Counted from the first letter of the stretch, positions 21,650 through 28,395 are shown. The stretch is DNA of 32,000 nt from Candidatus Hermodarchaeota archaeon (GCA_048886185.1 JBHLKY010000003.1:120595-152594), one strand, 5' to 3'. Notes: generated from the sequence alone by a model not told the origin. A program made the numbers and translations.

Positions 21650-22429
21650 CTATTTATTGACGGGAGTTATTTGTATTCGATCACCTGGAGTAATATCTAA
21701 GAGTTCTGAAGCTTTACCATTACGAAGAGCGATTTCCATTGTTTCATAGCTATTTACAATAAGAAAAGGTTTATCAGTAGACCCTTCAACATAAGACTTC
21801 TTAAAACATACATTAAGATTAGTTCTGTTTGTTGATACCCGACACTCTGCATCATGTTTCAGATTTAGCGAGCTAGGGACATTAGTTATAATATTACCAA
21901 AATGATCAATGTATATTACCTCCCCTGTAGATGTTCCAGAATCCCAAAGGAATCTTAGAGGGACTTGAAGGATACTTGGAGGGCCTAACTCCATTAATAA
22001 ATATGTTTGACTAAGTTTTGCAGCCGCGGGAGCGAATACATCCCTTCCATGAAAAGTATGGGAAACCTCTTTGAATATTGGCAGCTCAACAATCATCACA
22101 TCTTTTATATTCTCAATGATAGGTGCAAGGATACCGTTATCAGGCCCAATGAAGTAGTACTTCTCTGTTTGGACGCCTATGGCTTTTCTGGCCCCACCCA
22201 CTCCGGGATCTACCACAATTAAAAAGATAGTATTGACTGGAAAATATTTATAGGATTTCATTAGAATAAAAGCCCCCTGTCGAATGTTATGGTTTTGGAT
22301 ATGATTAGTAAGAGAAATAATATTCACAAACGGATTTATTTGAAGTATTCGACCTTTCATTATACCAGTAAAAGCATCATTCCCAAAATCTGTCATTAAT
22401 ACAATGAGAGGGATTCTATCTGAATTCAC
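21650..22429 (-). CDS. SAM hydroxide adenosyltransferase (DUF62, chlorinase/fluorinase family)
   Basis: LMTDFG, VVDPGVG, TFHGRDVFAPAAA, YIDHFGNIITN. Confidence 0.93.
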   Translation of the reverse strand: MNSDRIPLIVLMTDFGNDAFTGIMKGRILQINPFVNIISLTNHIQNHNIRQGAFILMKSYKYFPVNTIFLIVVDPGVGGARKAIGVQTEKYYFIGPDNGILAPIIENIKDVMIVELPIFKEVSHTFHGRDVFAPAAAKLSQTYLLMELGPPSILQVPLRFLWDSGTSTGEVIYIDHFGNIITNVPSSLNLKHDAECRVSTNRTNLNVCFKKSYVEGSTDKPFLIVNSYETMEIALRNGKASELLDITPGDRIQITPVNK

Positions 22430-22493
22430 GTTATAACCACACCTGCTTCCATCTTGAGTAGAGACAGTCTAATAAAAATTAAGAAAAACTCTG

Positions 22494-23864
22494 TTAATAT
22501 GATTTATCGATAGGTATAATTTCAGGATTTTTAGCAGCTATTAATGATACAATTCCCAAACAACTTATTAAAAATAAAAACATGAGAGTTCCTATAAAAC
22601 TAGCGGACTCAAGAATGATTCCAATCATTCCAAATCCAATTAATGAGAGAAGCAAATTAATTGTGTTAAAGAGCGACTCCTGTGAGCTTCTACATTTAGA
22701 TGAAGTAATCTTAAGATAGAGTTGCCAGTATAGACCCGTTGCAAGTCCACTTAAAATAATTTTAAAAAGGAATATTAAGATTATAAGACTTAACTGGATG
22801 TAAGTGGGGAGATTACATATCAAAACTAACAAATAAGCCATCCATACAACTGGATAATCCAGAATATAAAAAATTAAGATTCCTTTATAGGATGATTGAA
22901 TAAAGGAGGTTACTTTTCCCGAAAAACGACTAGAAATTGCAAATAATACATTTGAGAGAGAATGGGTTAAAGTAATTAATATAATAGAGAGATCTGTATA
23001 TCGAATGATAAATTCATTTCGATTAAAAGGGTGAATAGATGAATTAATTTGATATAAAAGCGGAGAAAAAACAAGAGTGCTAAACGAAACCGATGTAAAG
23101 CTTAAAAGTGAAAAACTTATGAAAAATGGGATAACTGAGTAATAATTCTTTCTTAAGCTAGTTCTGAGTAAGACCAATTTAGAATGACTACATTCAAACC
23201 TTTTTGAGAGAGATTTTGTAGAACTTACATTCTTCAGAGCTACTGGTGTTGAAATTAGTTTTAGCCCCAATATTACTCCCAAAGCAGCGACAATAGCCTG
23301 AATTAGGAAAATAAATTGAGGTAAGATTCCATCCTGTCTGAGTAAAATTCCTCCTATGAATGTAATAATGGCTATAAAAATAGATTTAGCAAAACTGACA
23401 TTTCCCATTATATTTCGGAATAATAAGCCAGTTTCAGGATATTTTGCAGCAGCAGATTCCCAGGAATTTAGAAACCAAGAGATGAAAGACCCCGATAATA
23501 GAGCTGAATAAATTCCGACTAAAATTTCCAACAAAACTAGTTCAATGGGATGATTCACAAGAATCAATCCAAAATAATAAATCATCAAACATAAAAATGC
23601 ACCACTAAACGCTGTTCTTTGCCCAAAACGATCTGTCAAGATGCCAAGAGGTACATCAAGGATTGCTCCAAAAAACATACCAATAGCTACTATAATACTG
23701 AAAGTGCTGAAAGAATTCAAGATAGAAAGGTAATAAAGAGAAATCCAAGAATAACTAAGATATATTCCAGTAACCACTCCTTCCAAACAAAAAAATCTTA
23801 AGCTTAAACTCTGTAATTCTCTTGGAAATGTTGAAATGCCAAGAAGACTATGGATGAATGCCAT
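22494..23864 (-). CDS. MFS transporter
   Basis: About 12 TMs; motif A-like DVPLGILTDRFGQR. Confidence 0.85.
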   Translation of the reverse strand: MAFIHSLLGISTFPRELQSLSLRFFCLEGVVTGIYLSYSWISLYYLSILNSFSTFSIIVAIGMFFGAILDVPLGILTDRFGQRTAFSGAFLCLMIYYFGLILVNHPIELVLLEILVGIYSALLSGSFISWFLNSWESAAAKYPETGLLFRNIMGNVSFAKSIFIAIITFIGGILLRQDGILPQFIFLIQAIVAALGVILGLKLISTPVALKNVSSTKSLSKRFECSHSKLVLLRTSLRKNYYSVIPFFISFSLLSFTSVSFSTLVFSPLLYQINSSIHPFNRNEFIIRYTDLSIILITLTHSLSNVLFAISSRFSGKVTSFIQSSYKGILIFYILDYPVVWMAYLLVLICNLPTYIQLSLIILIFLFKIILSGLATGLYWQLYLKITSSKCRSSQESLFNTINLLLSLIGFGMIGIILESASFIGTLMFLFLISCLGIVSLIAAKNPEIIPIDKSY

Positions 23865-23912
23865 CTTTATCCCTCTATTTAGAAAATTTTTAAATCTGAG
23901 AATCTGCTTATA

Positions 23913-25301
23913 TCAATTCACAGGCGAAACATTCTTAGCAACACTTGCTATAGTGGAGAAATTTACAATGGGGAAATTCTGTGAATTTATTTCCCCTCCT
24001 GAGATAATGACTAAGTAAGGGACATTCTTGAGATGCTTTTCATATTGGTCTACAAAATGATCAAATTTATCACCAACTATCATTGCCCTATTAGCGCAGT
24101 CAAAAAATAAAGCAAACATTGTATTTTCAGTGATTATGTCAGATAACGTTCTATTTAGCAATTCCTCAATTGTTACGACACTTTGATCACAAATATATGC
24201 TTGATAAGAGGATGGGTCCTTAGAAATTAATTTTCTGGCAATCTGACTGGGTGCCGTGATAAGAGCATGCTTAAGATTTGGATTAATAGCTAGTGCATAT
24301 AAATTTTGGTTCCGTTCTTTGTCAATGATACACAGTGGTCTGAAAGGATGATAGTAAAAGTATTTTTGAGTGCACTGCTCAAATACATCAGGTGTTTTTT
24401 CCATATCATATAGTTCCAACAAAGCATCAGCTCCCCATTTTCCACGGATTCGTGGAATAAACCCACCATCAAGATAACTATCGATATCAAAGCTCTTATG
24501 AGGGATGATACTTGCTCCAGAACTAGTTCTGCTCTCAAATCGAAGACTCGGTGAACTTATTGATACATATGACAATGAGTCTTTGTACGCTTTATAGTTG
24601 TGGAATTGGTATGCTTTCTCCATAGTTAAGGGATCTGCCCCAAAACTACCTGTGTAGTGGATTCCTTTTCTATAGAGTTGTGTAAAAAGAGGCCAAGTAC
24701 AGGAGTATGATATTCCAATTCCTGCGAAATCCATTGATACTCCAGCTAATTTTCCAATGACTTTTGGTAAGACCGGAAATTTTCGCCAAATTCTGTTGTT
24801 AAGTATAAAAAATGGATTTAATCCTTCAAGACGATGATTTAGCAAATCAACTATAAATTTAGGAAATCCAATCCCTGGGGGAAAGAAAATGTGAGTAGTG
24901 TTTGAATGCCTTTTTTTTTCTTCTTGAACAGTTTTTTCACATTTTTTGACAACTTTTGATGTTTTAAAACGTGTTCCGATCCGAAACCGCTTTATAATAT
25001 TATTTTGGGCCGAAACTCCTTCTAAAAGCATTAATGCTGCTCCTTTCAATCCATAGTCATCATTATTTGCAAAGCCAATACCTGAACATCCTGATAAGGG
25101 AATCTCTTTGTATTCTTCTTTTATTACTTCCATAGCTTTGTTGTAAGTTTTAACCCCTCCAGTGTGTGAGCCAGTAAAATACAGTATAAGCGATGGATGC
25201 GTTTTTAATCTTGATTGGGCTTGTTCCAGAGCTTTAATTGTAGCTTGGATTAAATCATGATCTACATTAAGACCAGTTGCAGCATTAATCATATTAGTCA
25301 C
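23913..25301 (-). CDS. FIST-domain signal-transduction protein
   Basis: IPLSGCSGIG (FIST_N); FFDCANR and ISGGEI (FIST_C). Confidence 0.8.
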   Translation of the reverse strand: MTNMINAATGLNVDHDLIQATIKALEQAQSRLKTHPSLILYFTGSHTGGVKTYNKAMEVIKEEYKEIPLSGCSGIGFANNDDYGLKGAALMLLEGVSAQNNIIKRFRIGTRFKTSKVVKKCEKTVQEEKKRHSNTTHIFFPPGIGFPKFIVDLLNHRLEGLNPFFILNNRIWRKFPVLPKVIGKLAGVSMDFAGIGISYSCTWPLFTQLYRKGIHYTGSFGADPLTMEKAYQFHNYKAYKDSLSYVSISSPSLRFESRTSSGASIIPHKSFDIDSYLDGGFIPRIRGKWGADALLELYDMEKTPDVFEQCTQKYFYYHPFRPLCIIDKERNQNLYALAINPNLKHALITAPSQIARKLISKDPSSYQAYICDQSVVTIEELLNRTLSDIITENTMFALFFDCANRAMIVGDKFDHFVDQYEKHLKNVPYLVIISGGEINSQNFPIVNFSTIASVAKNVSPVN

Positions 25302-25767
25302 CTAACGATTTCTTTCTATCAATAATCCATCCTAACCGTTTTGCGGTCCTACTCATCTCAATTTCCATTAATCCAGAATTAGCTGTTGAGGTTAGGAGAG
25401 TAACTAAGATAGCTGAATTTCCAGCACAGTAAAAGTAAACTGGGATTCTATTTTTAGACCTAATTTCTTTGTCATATTTAACAGACCTCGACCCTCGTTG
25501 AAGTTCTTCCATTGTCTTAGAAATAATATTTTTTACCCAGCTGATAACAATCAGGAGATCCTGAGAAGCCTCATTACAATAACTAGAGTGTAAGACTCGC
25601 CCATCAAGTCGAAATAGTATTGTAGCCTGTACATCTGCAAATTCGGCCAAATATTTTAGTTCTTTTTTAATTGAAGTAATAACTGATGATATATTATTGG
25701 TTGAGGGAAGAGGATCAATCGCTTGCGATATCATATACAACCAATCCTTTATTTTTCTCAAAACCAA
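25294..25767 (-). CDS. Roadblock/LC7 (MglB/LAMTOR-like) protein
   Basis: ILFRLDGRVLHS...AGNSAILVTL...GLMEIEMSRTAKRL. The start may be ATG 25734. Confidence 0.8.
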   Translation of the reverse strand: MVLRKIKDWLYMISQAIDPLPSTNNISSVITSIKKELKYLAEFADVQATILFRLDGRVLHSSYCNEASQDLLIVISWVKNIISKTMEELQRGSRSVKYDKEIRSKNRIPVYFYCAGNSAILVTLLTSTANSGLMEIEMSRTAKRLGWIIDRKKSLGD

Positions 25768-26464
25768 TGGGTTGAGGCATTTCTGAATGAGCTGATCCTC
25801 TAAACTTACGTATACTTAGAGTTCTGCTATAAATTCCACCCAATCCAATATGTTCAAGTTCTATGATTGAATCAGAGAGGAAAAGGGGAATTCTAGCAAG
25901 TGCTTGGCCAAATCCTTTTTCGATTGTCACAACTGAAGTTCCAATTTTCCTTAATGAAGAAAAGATACGGTTTATTACATTTCTTTGTTGGTTTGGTTCA
26001 GATATTTCAAGGAGTAATGGAGTGAGAGGATCAATTGCTATTCGGATCCCCCCATAGAATCCTTCAGACGTTTCCTTAATAATTTCCAGATACTTTGGTA
26101 GCTCTGACATGAAGAATCGTAATGCAATCTCACCTGAGGTTAAGTCTGAATCTTCAGAGAACGCAACTTGGAATTGTAGATTCCCTCGTTTGTATTTCTC
26201 CTCGAATTTTAACAAACCAATTTCATTACAATCTTGGAGGACTGAATGAAGATTTTGTTCGAGAGAGACATATAGGGCAGGTGATTGAAGATCCTCGGTG
26301 CAAAATTGCCAACAGAATGTTGATTTCCCGCATCCAGGATCAGCAATAATAACGTTTACTGAATTTTTCCGAAATCCACCAAAAACTAGATTGTCAAAAC
26401 CAAGGACACCACTTATTATTCGCTTATTTTCTTGTTTTTGCATCTTTCTTAATAATTTTTGCAT
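25715..26464 (-). CDS. Single-domain KaiC/RAD55-family ATPase
   Basis: ISGVLGFD..GG, DPGCGKS, YVSLEQ, IAID, RTLSIRKFRGSAHS. Confidence 0.9.
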   Translation of the reverse strand: MQKLLRKMQKQENKRIISGVLGFDNLVFGGFRKNSVNVIIADPGCGKSTFCWQFCTEDLQSPALYVSLEQNLHSVLQDCNEIGLLKFEEKYKRGNLQFQVAFSEDSDLTSGEIALRFFMSELPKYLEIIKETSEGFYGGIRIAIDPLTPLLLEISEPNQQRNVINRIFSSLRKIGTSVVTIEKGFGQALARIPLFLSDSIIELEHIGLGGIYSRTLSIRKFRGSAHSEMPQPIGFEKNKGLVVYDIASD

Positions 26465-26474
26465 TTAAACCACC

Positions 26475-27086
26475 TTACGGGATTGATAGATGTTTTGAGA
26501 CTTCTAATGGTAATTTTTGAGAAAATTTATCCTCATACTTTCTGATATTCTGAATGAATTCAAATATTGATTCAAAAACTTCCATTATCGAAACAACATC
26601 CTTTGCTGAACATTTGAAAGAATTTATACACTGAAATCTCCTCTCAAATGATGTTAAGTCAATTTCTCTTTCATCAAAAGAAGCAATATCCGATTTCGTC
26701 CCAATTAAGAACTTGGGGACATGAGGTTCAACAAAATTAAGCCACCCTGAAATGGAAAATAAGGAGGATAGATCTGTAAGATCAAAACATAGAACAGCAG
26801 CGTCGGAACCTTTGCAAAACTCTTTGAATACCCCCATGTTCTTGAATTGCTCTTGTCCTCCTAGATCCCAAATTTGAACTTTTGTACAAGGAATCTTATC
26901 GTCAGAAAGTGTTTTTAAATGAAATTCTAATGCAATCGTTTGTCTAGCTTTACTAAAAAATGAATTATTGATAAAGGTCTTTGATATAGTTGTTTTACCT
27001 ACACCACCTTCCCCTAAAATGACAATTTTCAGTGGTTTATTTCTATTTGGATGTAGGAACCTCATGAGACACACTAATACATCCAA
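26475..27086 (-). CDS. Rab-like small GTPase (Ras superfamily)
   Basis: G1 GEGGVGKT, G2 TI, G3 WDLGGQ, G4 TKSD, G5 CSAK; no C-terminal Cys motif. The start may be ATG 27065. Confidence 0.93.
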   Translation of the reverse strand: MDVLVCLMRFLHPNRNKPLKIVILGEGGVGKTTISKTFINNSFFSKARQTIALEFHLKTLSDDKIPCTKVQIWDLGGQEQFKNMGVFKEFCKGSDAAVLCFDLTDLSSLFSISGWLNFVEPHVPKFLIGTKSDIASFDEREIDLTSFERRFQCINSFKCSAKDVVSIMEVFESIFEFIQNIRKYEDKFSQKLPLEVSKHLSIP

Positions 27087-27107
27087 TAATACTTTATATT
27101 TTAACTA

Positions 27108-27165: not shown

Positions 27166-27393
27166 ATGGATGGTGGAAATATGAGAATTAATTTTTTGAA
27201 AATAGGAGTTTCTTCCCTAGAAAAGCTATTAAGGAGAAAAAGAAGAGGTTCACCTCTAGTAGAAGAAGGAATACTCATTGGATTAAGTTTGTTTGGTTTT
27301 TTGTTAATCTTATCTATTGTAACAGGAGTTCTGGATTGGCTTCTAGTAAATGCTGATGAATTACTTAAGCAGCTTGGATCCCTGTTCTCTTAA
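27166..27393 (+). CDS. Small Flp-like pilin / class III signal peptide protein
   Basis: RRKRRG|SPLVE: basic leader, Gly at -1, Glu at +5, then a hydrophobic helix. The start may be ATG 27181. Confidence 0.65.
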   Translation: MDGGNMRINFLKIGVSSLEKLLRRKRRGSPLVEEGILIGLSLFGFLLILSIVTGVLDWLLVNADELLKQLGSLFS

Positions 27394-27650
27394 CAAAGAG
27401 TATTCTAGTATCGAAAAAGGCTTGAACTGTATAGATCTAGTAAACTTTCACAAAAAATTTATGGGGATTTCCGCTATTTATTTTGTTGAAGAAAAGCCAC
27501 TTCATAAAAAATTAGGATGATAAAACCATTCATTCAAGCCAACTTTTAATTACCCCGATAGCCCCAAAGATAAAGCCATACCCTTTGAGAAGTATTGGTG
27601 GAAAAATTTAAGCTGTTTACAGTTATTTGGCATATTCCCAAAACAGAACA

Positions 27651-27785
27651 TGGACCGAGTGGGATTTTCGGGCATAAAGACAGCCTATATGCCATTTGAA
27701 CCCACGACCTCCTGATGTCTTGAACAGCTGTATTTAACAGTCCGTTTGCAAGCCAGGCGCTACTTCCAAGCTGAGCTATCGGCCC
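27651..27785 (-). tRNA. tRNA-Ala(TGC) with two 30-nt introns (37/38: 27717-27746; T-loop 59/60: 27665-27694); CCA not encoded
   Basis: Acceptor GGGCCGA/TCGGTCC with G3:U70, anticodon stem CCTGG/TCAGG, T stem GTGGG/CCCAC. BHB-like junctions. Confidence 0.93.
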
Positions 27786-27828
27786 TAAATATTCAGAGTG
27801 GTCAGATAATAGTTTTCTTAAAAACATT

Positions 27829-28395
27829 TCAATTTTCGTCGAGATGCTGTTCCTTCCATATTCTTAGGGGTTCCTGTTTAGATTTAAATCGTAGTTGTTC
27901 TAAATATCGATAAACTGTACCGTGTTTCGATCCTTGTATTAACTGCATGATAGCTTCCCTCGCATTTTTTATCTCTGTCAGTTCTCCAATTATTGAAACT
28001 TGATTCCCAAATATAGAGATCAACACTTCCGTACCTGCCTCAATCATTCTTCTTGCTTTTCCTTTCTCTCCAATGATTCGTGATTTTATTCTTTTAATTG
28101 TGTTCTTTGATCCTGCTAGTTCAATAGTCTCAAGATAAATATCGTCATCTAATAGGTAGAAAGCTTTCTCCGCACTGAAACCCCTGCCGATTGCTTTTAT
28201 GATTTCACGAGCTTTCCACATGAGTGTTGGATCTGAGGTGTTTAAAGACGAAGTTATGTGAACTGAACCATCTTCACTGTTGATTTCAATGGAAACACCC
28301 GTAATAGTTTCTATTTCCGATTTAACAGATCCATTTTTTCCAATCACCACTCCTATTCGGCTCTTGGGAATTTTTAACCGACTTTCTATTACCAT
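27829..28395 (-). CDS. KH-domain pre-rRNA processing protein Dim2/Pno1
   Basis: IGVVIGKNG, KAIGRGFS, RIIGEKG, GSKHGTVY. Confidence 0.93.
   Translation of the reverse strand: MVIESRLKIPKSRIGVVIGKNGSVKSEIETITGVSIEINSEDGSVHITSSLNTSDPTLMWKAREIIKAIGRGFSAEKAFYLLDDDIYLETIELAGSKNTIKRIKSRIIGEKGKARRMIEAGTEVLISIFGNQVSIIGELTEIKNAREAIMQLIQGSKHGTVYRYLEQLRFKSKQEPLRIWKEQHLDEN

What the first reader, a model, noticed from the sequence alone, without database searches (positions are those of the whole stretch)
21650..27086. Rab-like GTPase - KaiC ATPase - roadblock - FIST operon leading into an MFS transporter and SAM hydrolase
Seen: six co-oriented genes, the first four tightly coupled (10-bp gap, then overlaps). 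Knowledge: roadblock proteins act as GAPs or scaffolds for small GTPases (MglA/B, Rag-Ragulator); archaeal KaiC-like ATPases are signalling hubs; FIST domains are predicted small-ligand sensors. Inference: a nutrient-sensing switch joining a prokaryotic sensor and KaiC hub to a eukaryote-like GTPase/roadblock pair. I do not recognise this four-gene combination as described.
Basis: partly seen in the sequence, partly recalled or inferred. Interest (0 to 1): 0.76.

Follow-up and report, generated by a model that had tools for sequence, protein, structure and literature searches.

The report
KaiC-roadblock-FIST operon with Rab-like GTPase
In an archaeon close to the ancestors of eukaryotes, an old three-gene archaeal signalling unit (a KaiC-type ATPase, a roadblock protein and a FIST domain protein) has gained its own Rab-like GTPase, which names concrete candidate regulators for one of these otherwise unassignable GTPases.

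Summary
Six co-oriented minus-strand genes encode a Ras/Rab-like GTPase, a single-domain KaiC-like ATPase, a roadblock-fold protein, a FIST protein, an MFS permease and a SAM hydrolase. The first four are joined by a 10-nt gap, a 20-nt overlap and a 1-nt gap.

The genome is a Hodarchaeales Asgard archaeon.

- **Core.** The conserved unit is not a eukaryote-like GTPase/roadblock pair. It is a GTPase-less triad, KaiC-roadblock-FIST, also found in Euryarchaeota (Methanoperedens, Methanohalarchaeum, Ca. Mnemosynella). All three proteins are homologous between the two groups.
- **GTPase.** Heimdallarchaeia added a GTPase. It lies 5' of the triad in the window's genus and 3' of it in Ca. Heimdallarchaeum. 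On a tree the data are compatible with one dedicated GTPase clade. The GTPase has decayed in some lineages of the window's genus.
- **Accessories.** The MFS gene follows FIST in 17 of 18 genomes of the genus. The SAM hydrolase is present in only 8 of 18 and is not part of the unit.

Function is inferred: FIST gives the input, the KaiC state is read by the roadblock dimer, and the GTPase is the output. Nothing supports nutrient sensing or a Rag/Ragulator identity.

I found no description in the searchable papers. This scan has already found the same cassette on other genomes.

The parts
26475..27065 (-). Rab-like small GTPase of the Ras superfamily, 196 aa. It is the first gene of the operon and belongs to a cassette-dedicated clade.
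   Evidence: PF00071 at 2.8e-27 and TIGR00231 above its cut-off. The best solved relatives are Rab43, Rab7/Ypt7 and Rab35 at about 1e-19 to 1e-20. Motifs G1-G5 are intact, including DxxGQ, and there is no C-terminal Cys. It groups with the Ca. Heimdallarchaeum cassette GTPases.
25715..26464 (-). Single-domain KaiC-like RecA-superfamily ATPase, 249 aa.
   Evidence: PF06745 at 7e-29. PDB matches to KaiC and to PH0284, PH0186 and SSO2452. Walker A, Walker B, the catalytic Glu and the K-x-R-G-x-x-H motif are conserved. It is the best own-genome match of the Methanohalarchaeum cassette KaiC.
25294..25734 (-). Roadblock/LC7/MglB-fold protein, 146 aa, of the KaiC-associated family (precomputed label PF27410 'AF0774'). 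Its start overlaps the KaiC stop by 20 nt.
   Evidence: AF2 model with pLDDT 85. Foldseek to 9jue, 3t1r, 1j3w, 7f8m and LAMTOR proteins. phmmer to 7f8m at 0.005. Single copy in the genome. 85 close relatives, named COG2018 roadblock by JGI.
23913..25292 (-). Stand-alone FIST_N plus FIST_C protein, 459 aa, the putative input module.
   Evidence: PF08495 and PF10442 above their cut-offs. AF2 model with pLDDT 85. Top PDB fold match is human FBXO22. Atlas TM 0.82 to archaeal FIST clusters. Single FIST gene in the genome.
22494..23864 (-). MFS permease, 456 aa. A lineage-specific accessory gene, found in 17 of 18 genomes of the genus.
   Evidence: PF07690 at 36 bits against a cut-off of 33.4. Conservation. 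Absent from the Ca. Heimdallarchaeum and L048 versions.
21650..22429 (-). SAM hydroxide adenosyltransferase (SAM hydrolase), 259 aa. An adjacent gene that is not part of the module.
   Evidence: PF01887 and PF20257. It resembles the (R)-SAM hydrolase NCBIfam models but scores below their cut-offs. Present in only 8 of 18 genomes of the genus. Two T5 runs lie in the 64-nt spacer before it.
27091..27103 (-). A+T-rich TATA-like element about 30 nt upstream of the GTPase ATG. A possible operon promoter; this is inferred only.
   Evidence: Read from the sequence. No transcript data are available.

Best explanation
This is a conserved operon built around an ancient archaeal three-protein signalling core: a single-domain KaiC-like ATPase, a dedicated roadblock-fold partner and a stand-alone FIST protein. 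Heimdallarchaeia added a dedicated Rab-like small GTPase to this core, and the window's genus also added an MFS permease.

Shown here:
- gene content, order and coupling;
- homology of all three core proteins between Asgard archaea and Euryarchaeota;
- intact catalytic motifs in the ATPase and the GTPase;
- the roadblock and FIST folds.

Inferred mechanism:
1. The FIST protein receives the input, either a small ligand or a protein.
2. This biases the ATP-hydrolysis or autophosphorylation state of the KaiC-like oligomer.
3. The roadblock dimer binds KaiC and reads that state.
4. In Heimdallarchaeia the same MglB-like platform also engages the cassette GTPase and sets its nucleotide state, as a GAP, as a GEF or by sequestering it.
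5. The GTPase passes the signal to effectors that are not yet known.

The MFS permease either carries the sensed solute or is the regulated target. The SAM hydrolase is only a neighbour.
For: - **Close relatives.** The order GTPase-KaiC-roadblock-FIST-MFS is kept in three related Hodarchaeales contigs. In 18 genomes of the genus, KaiC is present in 17, an intact GTPase in 14 and the MFS gene in 17.
- **A second gene order.** In Ca. Heimdallarchaeum and its relatives the same four genes stand as KaiC-roadblock-FIST-GTPase plus a small CxxC protein. The flanking genes there are different.
- **Roadblock and FIST stay together.** Of 28 more distant Asgard roadblock relatives, 27 have FIST directly downstream; the other is cut by a contig end.
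- **Triad without a GTPase.** A GTPase-less triad occurs in Methanohalarchaeum, Ca. Mnemosynella, Methanoperedens and Halobacteriota genome bins.
- **Homology between the two groups.** hhalign gives 97.7% for the roadblock and 97.2% for FIST. The Methanohalarchaeum cassette KaiC finds the window's KaiC as its best own-genome match, 4e-28 against 4e-19 for the next.
- **Coupling.** KaiC and roadblock overlap by 1-20 nt in most Asgard and several euryarchaeal loci (coordinates).
- **Dedicated GTPases.** The cassette GTPases of both gene orders fall on one side of a 98% SH-aLRT branch. Forcing them into one clade is not rejected (AU p 0.72), and the constrained tree has the higher likelihood.
- **Independent roadblock-GTPase links.** A 58%-identical GTPase paralogue lies 26 nt downstream of another roadblock gene. 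A roadblock fused to a degenerate GTPase domain also exists.
- **FIST as an input module.** The fold matches bacterial FIST domains fused to GGDEF, EAL, cyclase, SpoIIE or HD output domains.
- **Motifs.** The ATPase and GTPase motifs are intact.
Against: - There is no transcript evidence and no biochemical evidence. No physical interaction has been shown.
- The GTPase is missing or decayed in 3 of 17 informative genomes of the genus and in Ca. Hodarchaeum mangrovi. It is absent from one other Asgard lineage and from all euryarchaeal triads seen. The core therefore works without it.
- Within the genus the whole region from RNA polymerase to SecY is syntenic. Conservation of the MFS gene and the pilin-like gene there is weak evidence of linkage.
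- The two cassette GTPase groups are not reciprocal best hits. Both sit on long branches, so their clade could be long-branch attraction.
- The only solved FIST protein, FBXO22, recognises a protein rather than a small ligand.
Confidence: 0.55

Rival explanations
1. This is a nutrient-sensing switch like Rag/Ragulator, in which a eukaryote-like GTPase/roadblock pair is coupled to prokaryotic sensors, and the MFS transporter and SAM hydrolase belong to the same pathway (amino acid, SAM or adenosine sensing).
For: The roadblock fold also matches LAMTOR/Ragulator subunits. FIST is a predicted sensor domain. The MFS gene follows FIST in 17 of 18 genomes of the genus, and a non-orthologous MFS follows the triad in one other Asgard lineage.
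Against: The GTPase has no C-terminal roadblock domain, and its Gtr1/RagA score of 17.4 bits is below the cut-off of 22. The roadblock family predates the GTPase and occurs without it. The SAM hydrolase is present in only 8 of 18 genomes and lies behind T-runs. There is no MFS gene in the Ca. Heimdallarchaeum or L048 versions. No ligand evidence exists.
Confidence: 0.08
2. The cassette regulates a pilus-like surface structure. In this view KaiC, the roadblock and the GTPase control the assembly or placement of a type-IV-pilus-like machine, as MglA/MglB do in Myxococcus and as KaiC-family ATPases are proposed to do in archaeal pilus loci.
For: A 75-aa pilin-like gene is transcribed divergently from the GTPase and is kept in 17 of 18 genomes of the genus. 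An earlier follow-up of this scan reports a divergent pilus machine a few kb beyond the window (not checked here). KaiC-family ATPases and arCOG02603 roadblock proteins are often encoded in archaeal type IV pilus loci (PMC4858521).
Against: The Ca. Heimdallarchaeum, f22 and euryarchaeal versions have no pilin or pilus genes among the neighbours examined. Within the genus the whole region is syntenic, so adjacency says little. The pilin-like ORF has no family match.
Confidence: 0.15
3. The functional unit is the triad alone, and the roadblock serves only as a KaiB-like partner of the KaiC ATPase. The GTPase is a loosely attached passenger that shares the promoter but does not interact with the triad.
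For: The triad is complete without a GTPase in Euryarchaeota and in one Asgard lineage. The GTPase has decayed in part of the genus. The KaiC-roadblock overlap is the most widely kept junction.
Against: The GTPase stays attached in two different gene orders and two genomic contexts. The data are compatible with one dedicated clade. A paralogue of this GTPase pairs with another roadblock, and a roadblock-GTPase fusion exists.
Confidence: 0.17
4. This is chance synteny with no shared function.
For: Hodarchaeales genomes are broadly syntenic in this region.
Against: The same genes recur in another order, in other contexts and in another phylum.
Confidence: 0.02

Closest known systems
Archaeal KaiC-like ATPase signalling hubs (Makarova, Galperin and Koonin, mBio 2017; cited in PMC5847659, full text not held), including ArlH/FlaH and the solved PH0284, PH0186 and SSO2452 proteins
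   Same: A single RecA-type KaiC domain with intact Walker A, Walker B and catalytic Glu. It is encoded next to small partner proteins and a putative sensor.
   Different: It scores below the curated cut-off of every NCBIfam archaeal KaiC group and of ArlH. Its partners are a roadblock protein and a FIST protein, and in Heimdallarchaeia a small GTPase. I found none of these pairings described in the papers I could search.
MglA/MglB polarity switch (Myxococcus, Thermus)
   Same: A roadblock-fold protein with the extra C-terminal helix, encoded with a small Ras-superfamily GTPase. MglB structures are among the top fold matches.
   Different: The GTPase keeps the G3 aspartate (DxxGQ), which the MglA family lacks. 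In the 2014 census, 0 of 121 such Rup-type GTPases were coupled to MglB, against 404 of 488 MglA (PMC4316618). The roadblock family also exists without any GTPase and is always next to a KaiC-like ATPase.
Actinobacterial conservons / G protein systems (CvnA-D; PMC13343842, PMC13621833)
   Same: [quoted passage not shown]
   Different: There is no histidine-kinase-like CvnA and no DUF742 CvnC. The ATPase is of the RecA/KaiC type and the sensor is a soluble FIST protein. The GTPase is Rab-like, not of MglA group 2.
Rag GTPases with Ragulator (eukaryotes) and the Asgard LAMTOR1-like / Rab-like GTPase / DENN operon (bioRxiv 10.1101/2020.10.19.343400)
   Same: Roadblock-fold proteins paired with small GTPases in a lineage close to eukaryotes. 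LAMTOR structures match the fold.
   Different: The GTPase has no Rag-type C-terminal roadblock domain and there is no DENN or longin gene in the window. The partners here are KaiC and FIST, which those systems lack.
Euryarchaeal KaiC / PF27410 'AF0774' / PF27411 'AF0772_C' gene triad (labels from the precomputed Pfam annotation; no paper found)
   Same: All three core proteins are homologous and stand in the same order with the same coupling.
   Different: The window's version has a GTPase in front and an MFS gene behind. Its KaiC has lost the roughly 65-aa C-terminal tail, and its roadblock has gained N- and C-terminal extensions.

Membership tests
KaiC family ATPase (PF06745) | KaiC/RecA-type domain with Walker A, Walker B and the catalytic Glu | tested here: met
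   PF06745 at 7e-29 over residues 18-245. The motifs are conserved in the alignment with the Heimdallarchaeum and euryarchaeal cassette KaiCs.
Circadian KaiABC clock | Double-domain KaiC of about 520 aa with KaiB (and KaiA) partners | tested here: not met
   The protein is 249 aa with a single domain. It scores 84.6 bits against the 408-bit cut-off of the KaiC equivalog. No KaiA or KaiB domain was found among the neighbouring ORFs scanned.
Roadblock/LC7/MglB superfamily | alpha-beta-beta-alpha-beta-beta-beta fold, with an extra C-terminal helix in the MglB type | tested here: met
   The AF2 model has pLDDT 85 and this topology. Foldseek gives probability 1.00 to 9jue, 3t1r, 1j3w, 7f8m and 5y3a.
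Roadblock/LC7/MglB superfamily | Match to Pfam Robl_LC7 (PF03259) | tested here: not met
   There is no hit even at E up to 10 in the local Pfam copy. The precomputed annotation instead gives PF27410, marked weak for the Hodarchaeales members.
Roadblock/LC7/MglB superfamily | GAP or GEF activity on a small GTPase | not testable with these tools
   This needs nucleotide hydrolysis and exchange assays.
MglA family GTPase | The G3 motif lacks the conserved aspartate (PMC4316618) | tested here: not met
   G3 reads W-D-L-G-G-Q in the window's genus and W-D-F-A-G-Q in Ca. Heimdallarchaeum. All of the top 60 PDB matches are Rab or Ypt proteins.
Rab family GTPase (eukaryotic sense) | Closest to Rabs, with a C-terminal prenylatable Cys motif | tested here: inconclusive
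   The best solved relatives are Rab43, Rab7 and Rab35 at about 1e-19 to 1e-20. There is no C-terminal Cys. On the paralogue tree the protein sits in a divergent cassette-specific clade. No eukaryotic sequences were included in that tree.
Rag/Gtr GTPase | Gtr1_RagA G domain plus a C-terminal roadblock domain | tested here: not met
   PF04670 scores 17.4 bits, below its cut-off of 22. The protein is 196 aa with no C-terminal domain.
FIST domain proteins | FIST_N and FIST_C domains and their fold | tested here: met
   PF08495 scores 37.4 bits and PF10442 31.6 bits, both above their cut-offs. The top PDB fold match is FBXO22. Atlas TM is 0.82 and 0.80 to archaeal FIST clusters.
FIST domain proteins | Binding of a small ligand | not testable with these tools
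   This is a prediction from bacterial domain architectures. The only solved FIST protein binds a protein.
Actinobacterial conservon (CvnA-D) | Histidine-kinase-like CvnA and DUF742 CvnC together with a roadblock and a GTPase | tested here: not met
   None of the six proteins has an HATPase or DUF742 match. Only the roadblock and the GTPase have counterparts.
Archaeal KaiC / PF27410 / PF27411 triad | Three homologous genes in the order KaiC, roadblock, FIST-like | tested here: met
   hhalign gives 97.7% for the roadblock and 97.2% for FIST. The KaiC is the best own-genome match of the Methanohalarchaeum cassette KaiC. The order is the same in all 9 euryarchaeal loci long enough to show all three genes.
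SAM hydroxide adenosyltransferase (SAM hydrolase) | SAM_HAT_N and SAM_HAT_C domains | tested here: met
   PF01887 at 7.7e-50 and PF20257 at 1.9e-20.

The most novel reading that the evidence does not exclude
The locus records the step at which a roadblock protein that originally served a RecA-type (KaiC-like) ATPase was co-opted as the regulator of a Rab-like GTPase in the archaeal lineage nearest to eukaryotes. That would be a prokaryotic origin for partnerships between roadblock proteins and GTPases outside the MglA family, such as Ragulator with Rag. In this reading the KaiC ATPase state gates the GTPase cycle.
Probability: 0.15. Interest if true: 0.8.

Novelty: new variant of a known kind. 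Interest (0 to 1): 0.6.

Why it matters
Asgard archaea encode dozens of Ras-superfamily GTPases; this genome has at least 38 such ORFs. Their genes are generally not next to candidate regulators, so GTPases cannot be matched to GAPs or GEFs from genome layout (PMC10933270). This cassette is an exception that survives gene-order change. It names three specific candidate partners for one GTPase clade: a KaiC-like ATPase, a roadblock protein and a FIST protein. All are small soluble proteins that can be expressed and assayed.

The cassette also shows a roadblock family whose ancestral partner appears to be an ATPase rather than a GTPase. It couples a GTPase that keeps the G3 aspartate to a roadblock gene, a coupling not seen in the 2014 census of prokaryotic small GTPases (PMC4316618).

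Tried and rejected
- **Complex prediction.** I ran two copies of the roadblock with the GTPase, GTP and Mg. The result was no verdict, with a score of 0.00 against a mark of 0.32. It is not evidence either way.
- **RNA runs.** I searched for public RNA runs holding window 23900-27100. No RNA holder was listed, so co-transcription could not be tested.
- **Makarova et al. 2017 (mBio) on KaiC hubs.** The paper is not held under its DOI or its PMC id. I could not check whether it mentions the KaiC-roadblock-FIST neighbourhood. It is cited here only through PMC5847659.
- **Literature searches.** I tried KaiC with roadblock, GTPase and archaea; FIST with KaiC and archaea; KaiC with LC7; and the AF0772-AF0775 locus tags. 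Nothing relevant to this cassette came up.
- **The search for related loci with the broad roadblock alignment** failed for lack of a conserved stretch. Narrower queries worked.
- **Reciprocal best hits** between the two cassette GTPase groups failed. The question was therefore taken to a tree and an AU test.
- **The fifth Ca. Heimdallarchaeum gene**, a small CxxC protein, has no homologue in the window's genome.
- **The two MFS genes**, in the window's genus and in the f22 lineage, are not orthologous.
- **ARAGORN** finds no tRNA at 27300-27900, where another first-stage note places a multi-intron tRNA. That note is neither confirmed nor refuted.

Full report
**Observation.** The window is G000:C3:120595-152594 of a 4.84-Mb Asgard genome. 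Earlier notes and the names on close relatives place it in Hodarchaeales.

Six consecutive minus-strand ORFs fill 21650-27086. Pfam assigns them as follows:
- Ras/Roc to the 196-aa first protein;
- KaiC to the 249-aa second;
- nothing to the 146-aa third;
- FIST_N plus FIST_C to the 459-aa fourth;
- MFS_1 to the fifth;
- SAM_HAT_N plus SAM_HAT_C to the sixth.

The junctions read from the sequence are a 10-nt gap, a 20-nt overlap, a 1-nt gap (or an 8-nt overlap from an alternative GTG), a 48-nt gap and a 64-nt gap.

The GTPase probably starts at the ATG at 27065 rather than the TTG at 27086. Two things point that way. An A+T-rich TATA-like element lies about 30 nt upstream of the ATG, and the genes called on related contigs give 196-197 aa.

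**The third gene is a roadblock protein.**
- The local Pfam copy gives no hit even at E up to 10.
- Its closest relatives form a family of 85 clusters at 52-78% identity, nearly all from Hodarchaeales or Heimdall-type bins. JGI names them COG2018 roadblock/MglB, and the precomputed annotation gives PF27410 'AF0774'.
- The only PDB sequences reached by phmmer are roadblock or MglB proteins; the best is 7f8m at 0.005 over the whole length.
- An AlphaFold2 model (pLDDT 85, pTM 0.80) has the alpha-beta-beta-alpha-beta-beta-beta-alpha topology.
- Foldseek returns MK-D1 Roadblock3, the Thorarchaeota roadblock, MglB, MglC and LAMTOR proteins at probability 1.00.
- The gene is single-copy in the genome, and so is FIST.

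**Conservation within the genus.** Three related contigs carry the same order: pilin-like gene (divergent), then GTPase, KaiC, roadblock, FIST, MFS. Only one of them has the SAM hydrolase.

The whole region from the RNA polymerase genes through RIO1 and Dim2 to SecY and ribophorin I is syntenic there. Synteny inside the genus is therefore weak evidence by itself.

Counts in 18 further genomes of the genus:

| Gene | Genomes with it |
|---|---|
| KaiC | 17 |
| intact GTPase | 14 |
| MFS | 17 (the other is cut by a contig end) |
| SAM hydrolase | 8 |
| pilin-like gene | 17 |

In three genomes, and in Ca. Hodarchaeum mangrovi, a shorter ORF sits in the GTPase position. The 159-aa H. mangrovi ORF is still recognisably homologous (8e-9). 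It has lost the P-loop and the switch II region.

**The decisive evidence comes from more distant lineages.**

A profile of the roadblock family, searched in 301 Asgard genomes, finds a 120-aa relative in 26 of 29 genomes of a second Heimdallarchaeia family, one genome of a third family and one genome of another class. A FIST search of the same genomes shows FIST directly downstream, on the same strand, in 27 of these 28. The remaining one is cut by a contig end.

I fetched ten of these loci. In all nine from the second and third families the order is KaiC, roadblock, FIST, GTPase, followed by a conserved CxxC protein of about 105 aa. The GTPase therefore follows FIST there instead of preceding KaiC. 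The flanks also differ: a UFM1-ligase-like gene upstream and EF-1-alpha convergent downstream. That family includes the closed genomes of Ca. Heimdallarchaeum aukensis and endolithica.

The locus from the other class has KaiC, roadblock, FIST and then an MFS gene. There is no GTPase, and a longin-like gene lies upstream on the other strand. Its MFS is not orthologous to the window's.

A metagenomic relative keeps the window's order but is followed by unrelated genes and has no MFS.

**The core is older than the GTPase.** A profile search of 1.84 billion representative proteins finds only 32 clusters below 1e-10. Among them are members from Euryarchaeota:
- In Methanohalarchaeum thermophilum and Ca. 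Mnemosynella the gene lies between a KaiC-like ATPase, with a 4-nt overlap, and a FIST-like protein of about 450 aa labelled PF27411 'AF0772_C'.
- Thirteen genome loci from Ca. Mnemosynella, Halobacteriota bins, Methanohalarchaeum and Methanoperedens all show KaiC directly upstream. FIST-like follows in every locus long enough to show it. No GTPase lies within 4 kb.

Homology across the two groups holds for all three proteins. hhalign gives 97.7% for the roadblock and 97.2% over 375 columns for FIST. The Methanohalarchaeum KaiC finds the window's KaiC as its best match in this genome, 4e-28 against 4e-19 for the next paralogue.

Beyond about 1e-10 the profile hits are ordinary Robl_LC7 proteins in unrelated contexts.

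**The GTPase.**
- Its best solved relatives are Rab43, Rab7/Ypt7, Rab35 and Rab9 at about 1e-19 to 1e-20.
- G1 to G5 are intact in both cassette versions, including the G3 aspartate and glutamine. There is no C-terminal cysteine.
- The G3 aspartate excludes the MglA family. In the 2014 census none of 121 such Rup-type GTPases was coupled to an MglB gene (PMC4316618).
- The two cassette GTPase groups are not reciprocal best hits among the 18-38 paralogues per genome.
- On a tree of 81 GTPases they fall together on one side of a 98% SH-aLRT branch. Constraining them to one clade gives a higher likelihood than the free search, with AU p 0.72. Both groups sit on long stems, so long-branch attraction cannot be excluded.

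Two further observations tie this clade to roadblock proteins:
1. A 58%-identical paralogue in the same genome lies 26 nt downstream of another roadblock gene.
2. A 337-aa metagenomic protein fuses a cassette-type roadblock to a degenerate GTPase domain.

**The ATPase and FIST.**

The KaiC-like protein keeps Walker A, Walker B, the catalytic Glu and the K-x-R-G-x-x-H motif. It reaches the curated cut-off of no NCBIfam KaiC group. The window's genus has lost a C-terminal tail of about 65 aa that the Ca. Heimdallarchaeum, f22 and euryarchaeal proteins keep. Its roadblock has gained terminal extensions.

The FIST model (pLDDT 85) matches human FBXO22 best in the PDB. At a lower level it matches Toblerone-fold hydrolases and chorismatases. 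In the ESM Atlas it aligns at TM 0.80-0.82 with archaeal stand-alone FIST proteins. It aligns at TM 0.71-0.74 with bacterial FIST domains fused to SpoIIE, GGDEF, cyclase, EAL or HD outputs, which is the architecture of an input module.

**Interpretation.** The best-supported reading is a signalling module. Its invariant core is the KaiC-like ATPase with its roadblock partner and the FIST protein. Heimdallarchaeia attached a dedicated Rab-like GTPase to it.

I infer, but have not shown, the following chain:
1. FIST supplies the input.
2. The KaiC nucleotide or phosphorylation state is read by the roadblock dimer.
3. The roadblock platform sets the state of the GTPase.

The output is unknown. 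A link to the nearby pilin-like gene and pilus machine is possible, but it is specific to this genus. The SAM hydrolase is not part of the unit. The MFS gene is a lineage-specific accessory.

**Comparison with known systems.**
- The design resembles MglA/MglB and the actinobacterial conservons, which combine a sensor ATPase, a roadblock, a further protein and a small GTPase (PMC13343842, PMC13621833).
- It is a member of neither. The GTPase is not of the MglA type, and there is no CvnA-like or DUF742 protein.
- It is not Rag/Ragulator.
- It differs from the Asgard LAMTOR1-like / Rab-like / DENN operon.
- It fits the general idea of KaiC-like ATPases as archaeal signalling hubs. I could not read that paper.
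- No searchable paper joins KaiC with roadblock, FIST or a small GTPase in this way.

**Status within this scan.** The same cassette has been reported and followed up several times on other Hodarchaeales and Heimdallarchaeaceae genomes, with similar conclusions. My tests here were independent of those notes, except for the conservon comparison, which I took from them as a lead.

**Limits.** There are no transcript data, the complex prediction gave no verdict, and there is no biochemistry.

Noticed in passing
window 27166-27393 (+): A 75-aa ORF with a basic N-terminus followed by a hydrophobic stretch (pilin-like). It is transcribed divergently from the GTPase about 100 nt away. It is kept in 17 of 18 genomes of the genus at 69-98% identity and matches no Pfam-independent family in NCBIfam.
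   Followed up: partly
G000:C19:32024-33086 (-), outside the window: A second roadblock ORF (137 aa, ordinary Robl_LC7 type) lies 26 nt upstream of a GTPase that is 58% identical to the cassette GTPase. The pair is convergent with a MinD/ParA-like ATPase gene.
   Followed up: partly
G000:C10:41667-43618 (-), outside the window: Another small GTPase lies about 640 nt upstream of another KaiC-like ATPase on the same strand. No sizeable ORF lies between them.
   Followed up: partly
L035:9496-9816 (+) and the equivalent position in L036-L044: A conserved protein of about 105 aa with an N-terminal CxxC and a conserved His/Asp-rich motif follows the GTPase in every Ca. Heimdallarchaeum-type cassette. 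It has no Pfam match and no homologue in the window's genome.
   Followed up: partly
L047:6001-7014 (+): A 337-aa metagenomic protein fuses a cassette-type roadblock to a Ras-like domain whose P-loop and G3 motifs are degenerate. No KaiC or FIST gene lies nearby.
   Followed up: partly
L002:6787-7266 (+), Ca. Hodarchaeum mangrovi; also L091, L096 and L103: In L002 the GTPase position holds a 159-aa remnant that is homologous to the GTPase but lacks the P-loop and switch II. In L091, L096 and L103 tblastn finds no GTPase at that position.
   Followed up: yes
window 25715-26464 compared with L035, L039 and L049: The KaiC-like ATPase of the window's genus lacks the C-terminal helical tail of about 65 aa that the Ca. 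Heimdallarchaeum, f22 and euryarchaeal orthologues keep. Its roadblock partner is 25-27 aa longer than theirs.
   Followed up: partly
L039:5353-5838 (-): A 161-aa protein with weak longin-domain matches (Fuz_longin_1 and Sybindin, both below their cut-offs) lies divergently upstream of the GTPase-less triad in the f22 lineage.
   Followed up: no
window 27546-27827 (-): A 93-aa ORF with no family match. ARAGORN finds no tRNA at 27300-27900, although another first-stage note places a multi-intron tRNA-Ala at 27651-27785.
   Followed up: partly
whole genome G000: At least 38 ORFs match small Ras-superfamily GTPases at phmmer E below 1e-8. Of seven roadblock-like ORFs found with the cassette profile, three lie within 1 kb of a GTPase on the same strand, one of them the cassette's own roadblock.
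   Followed up: partly
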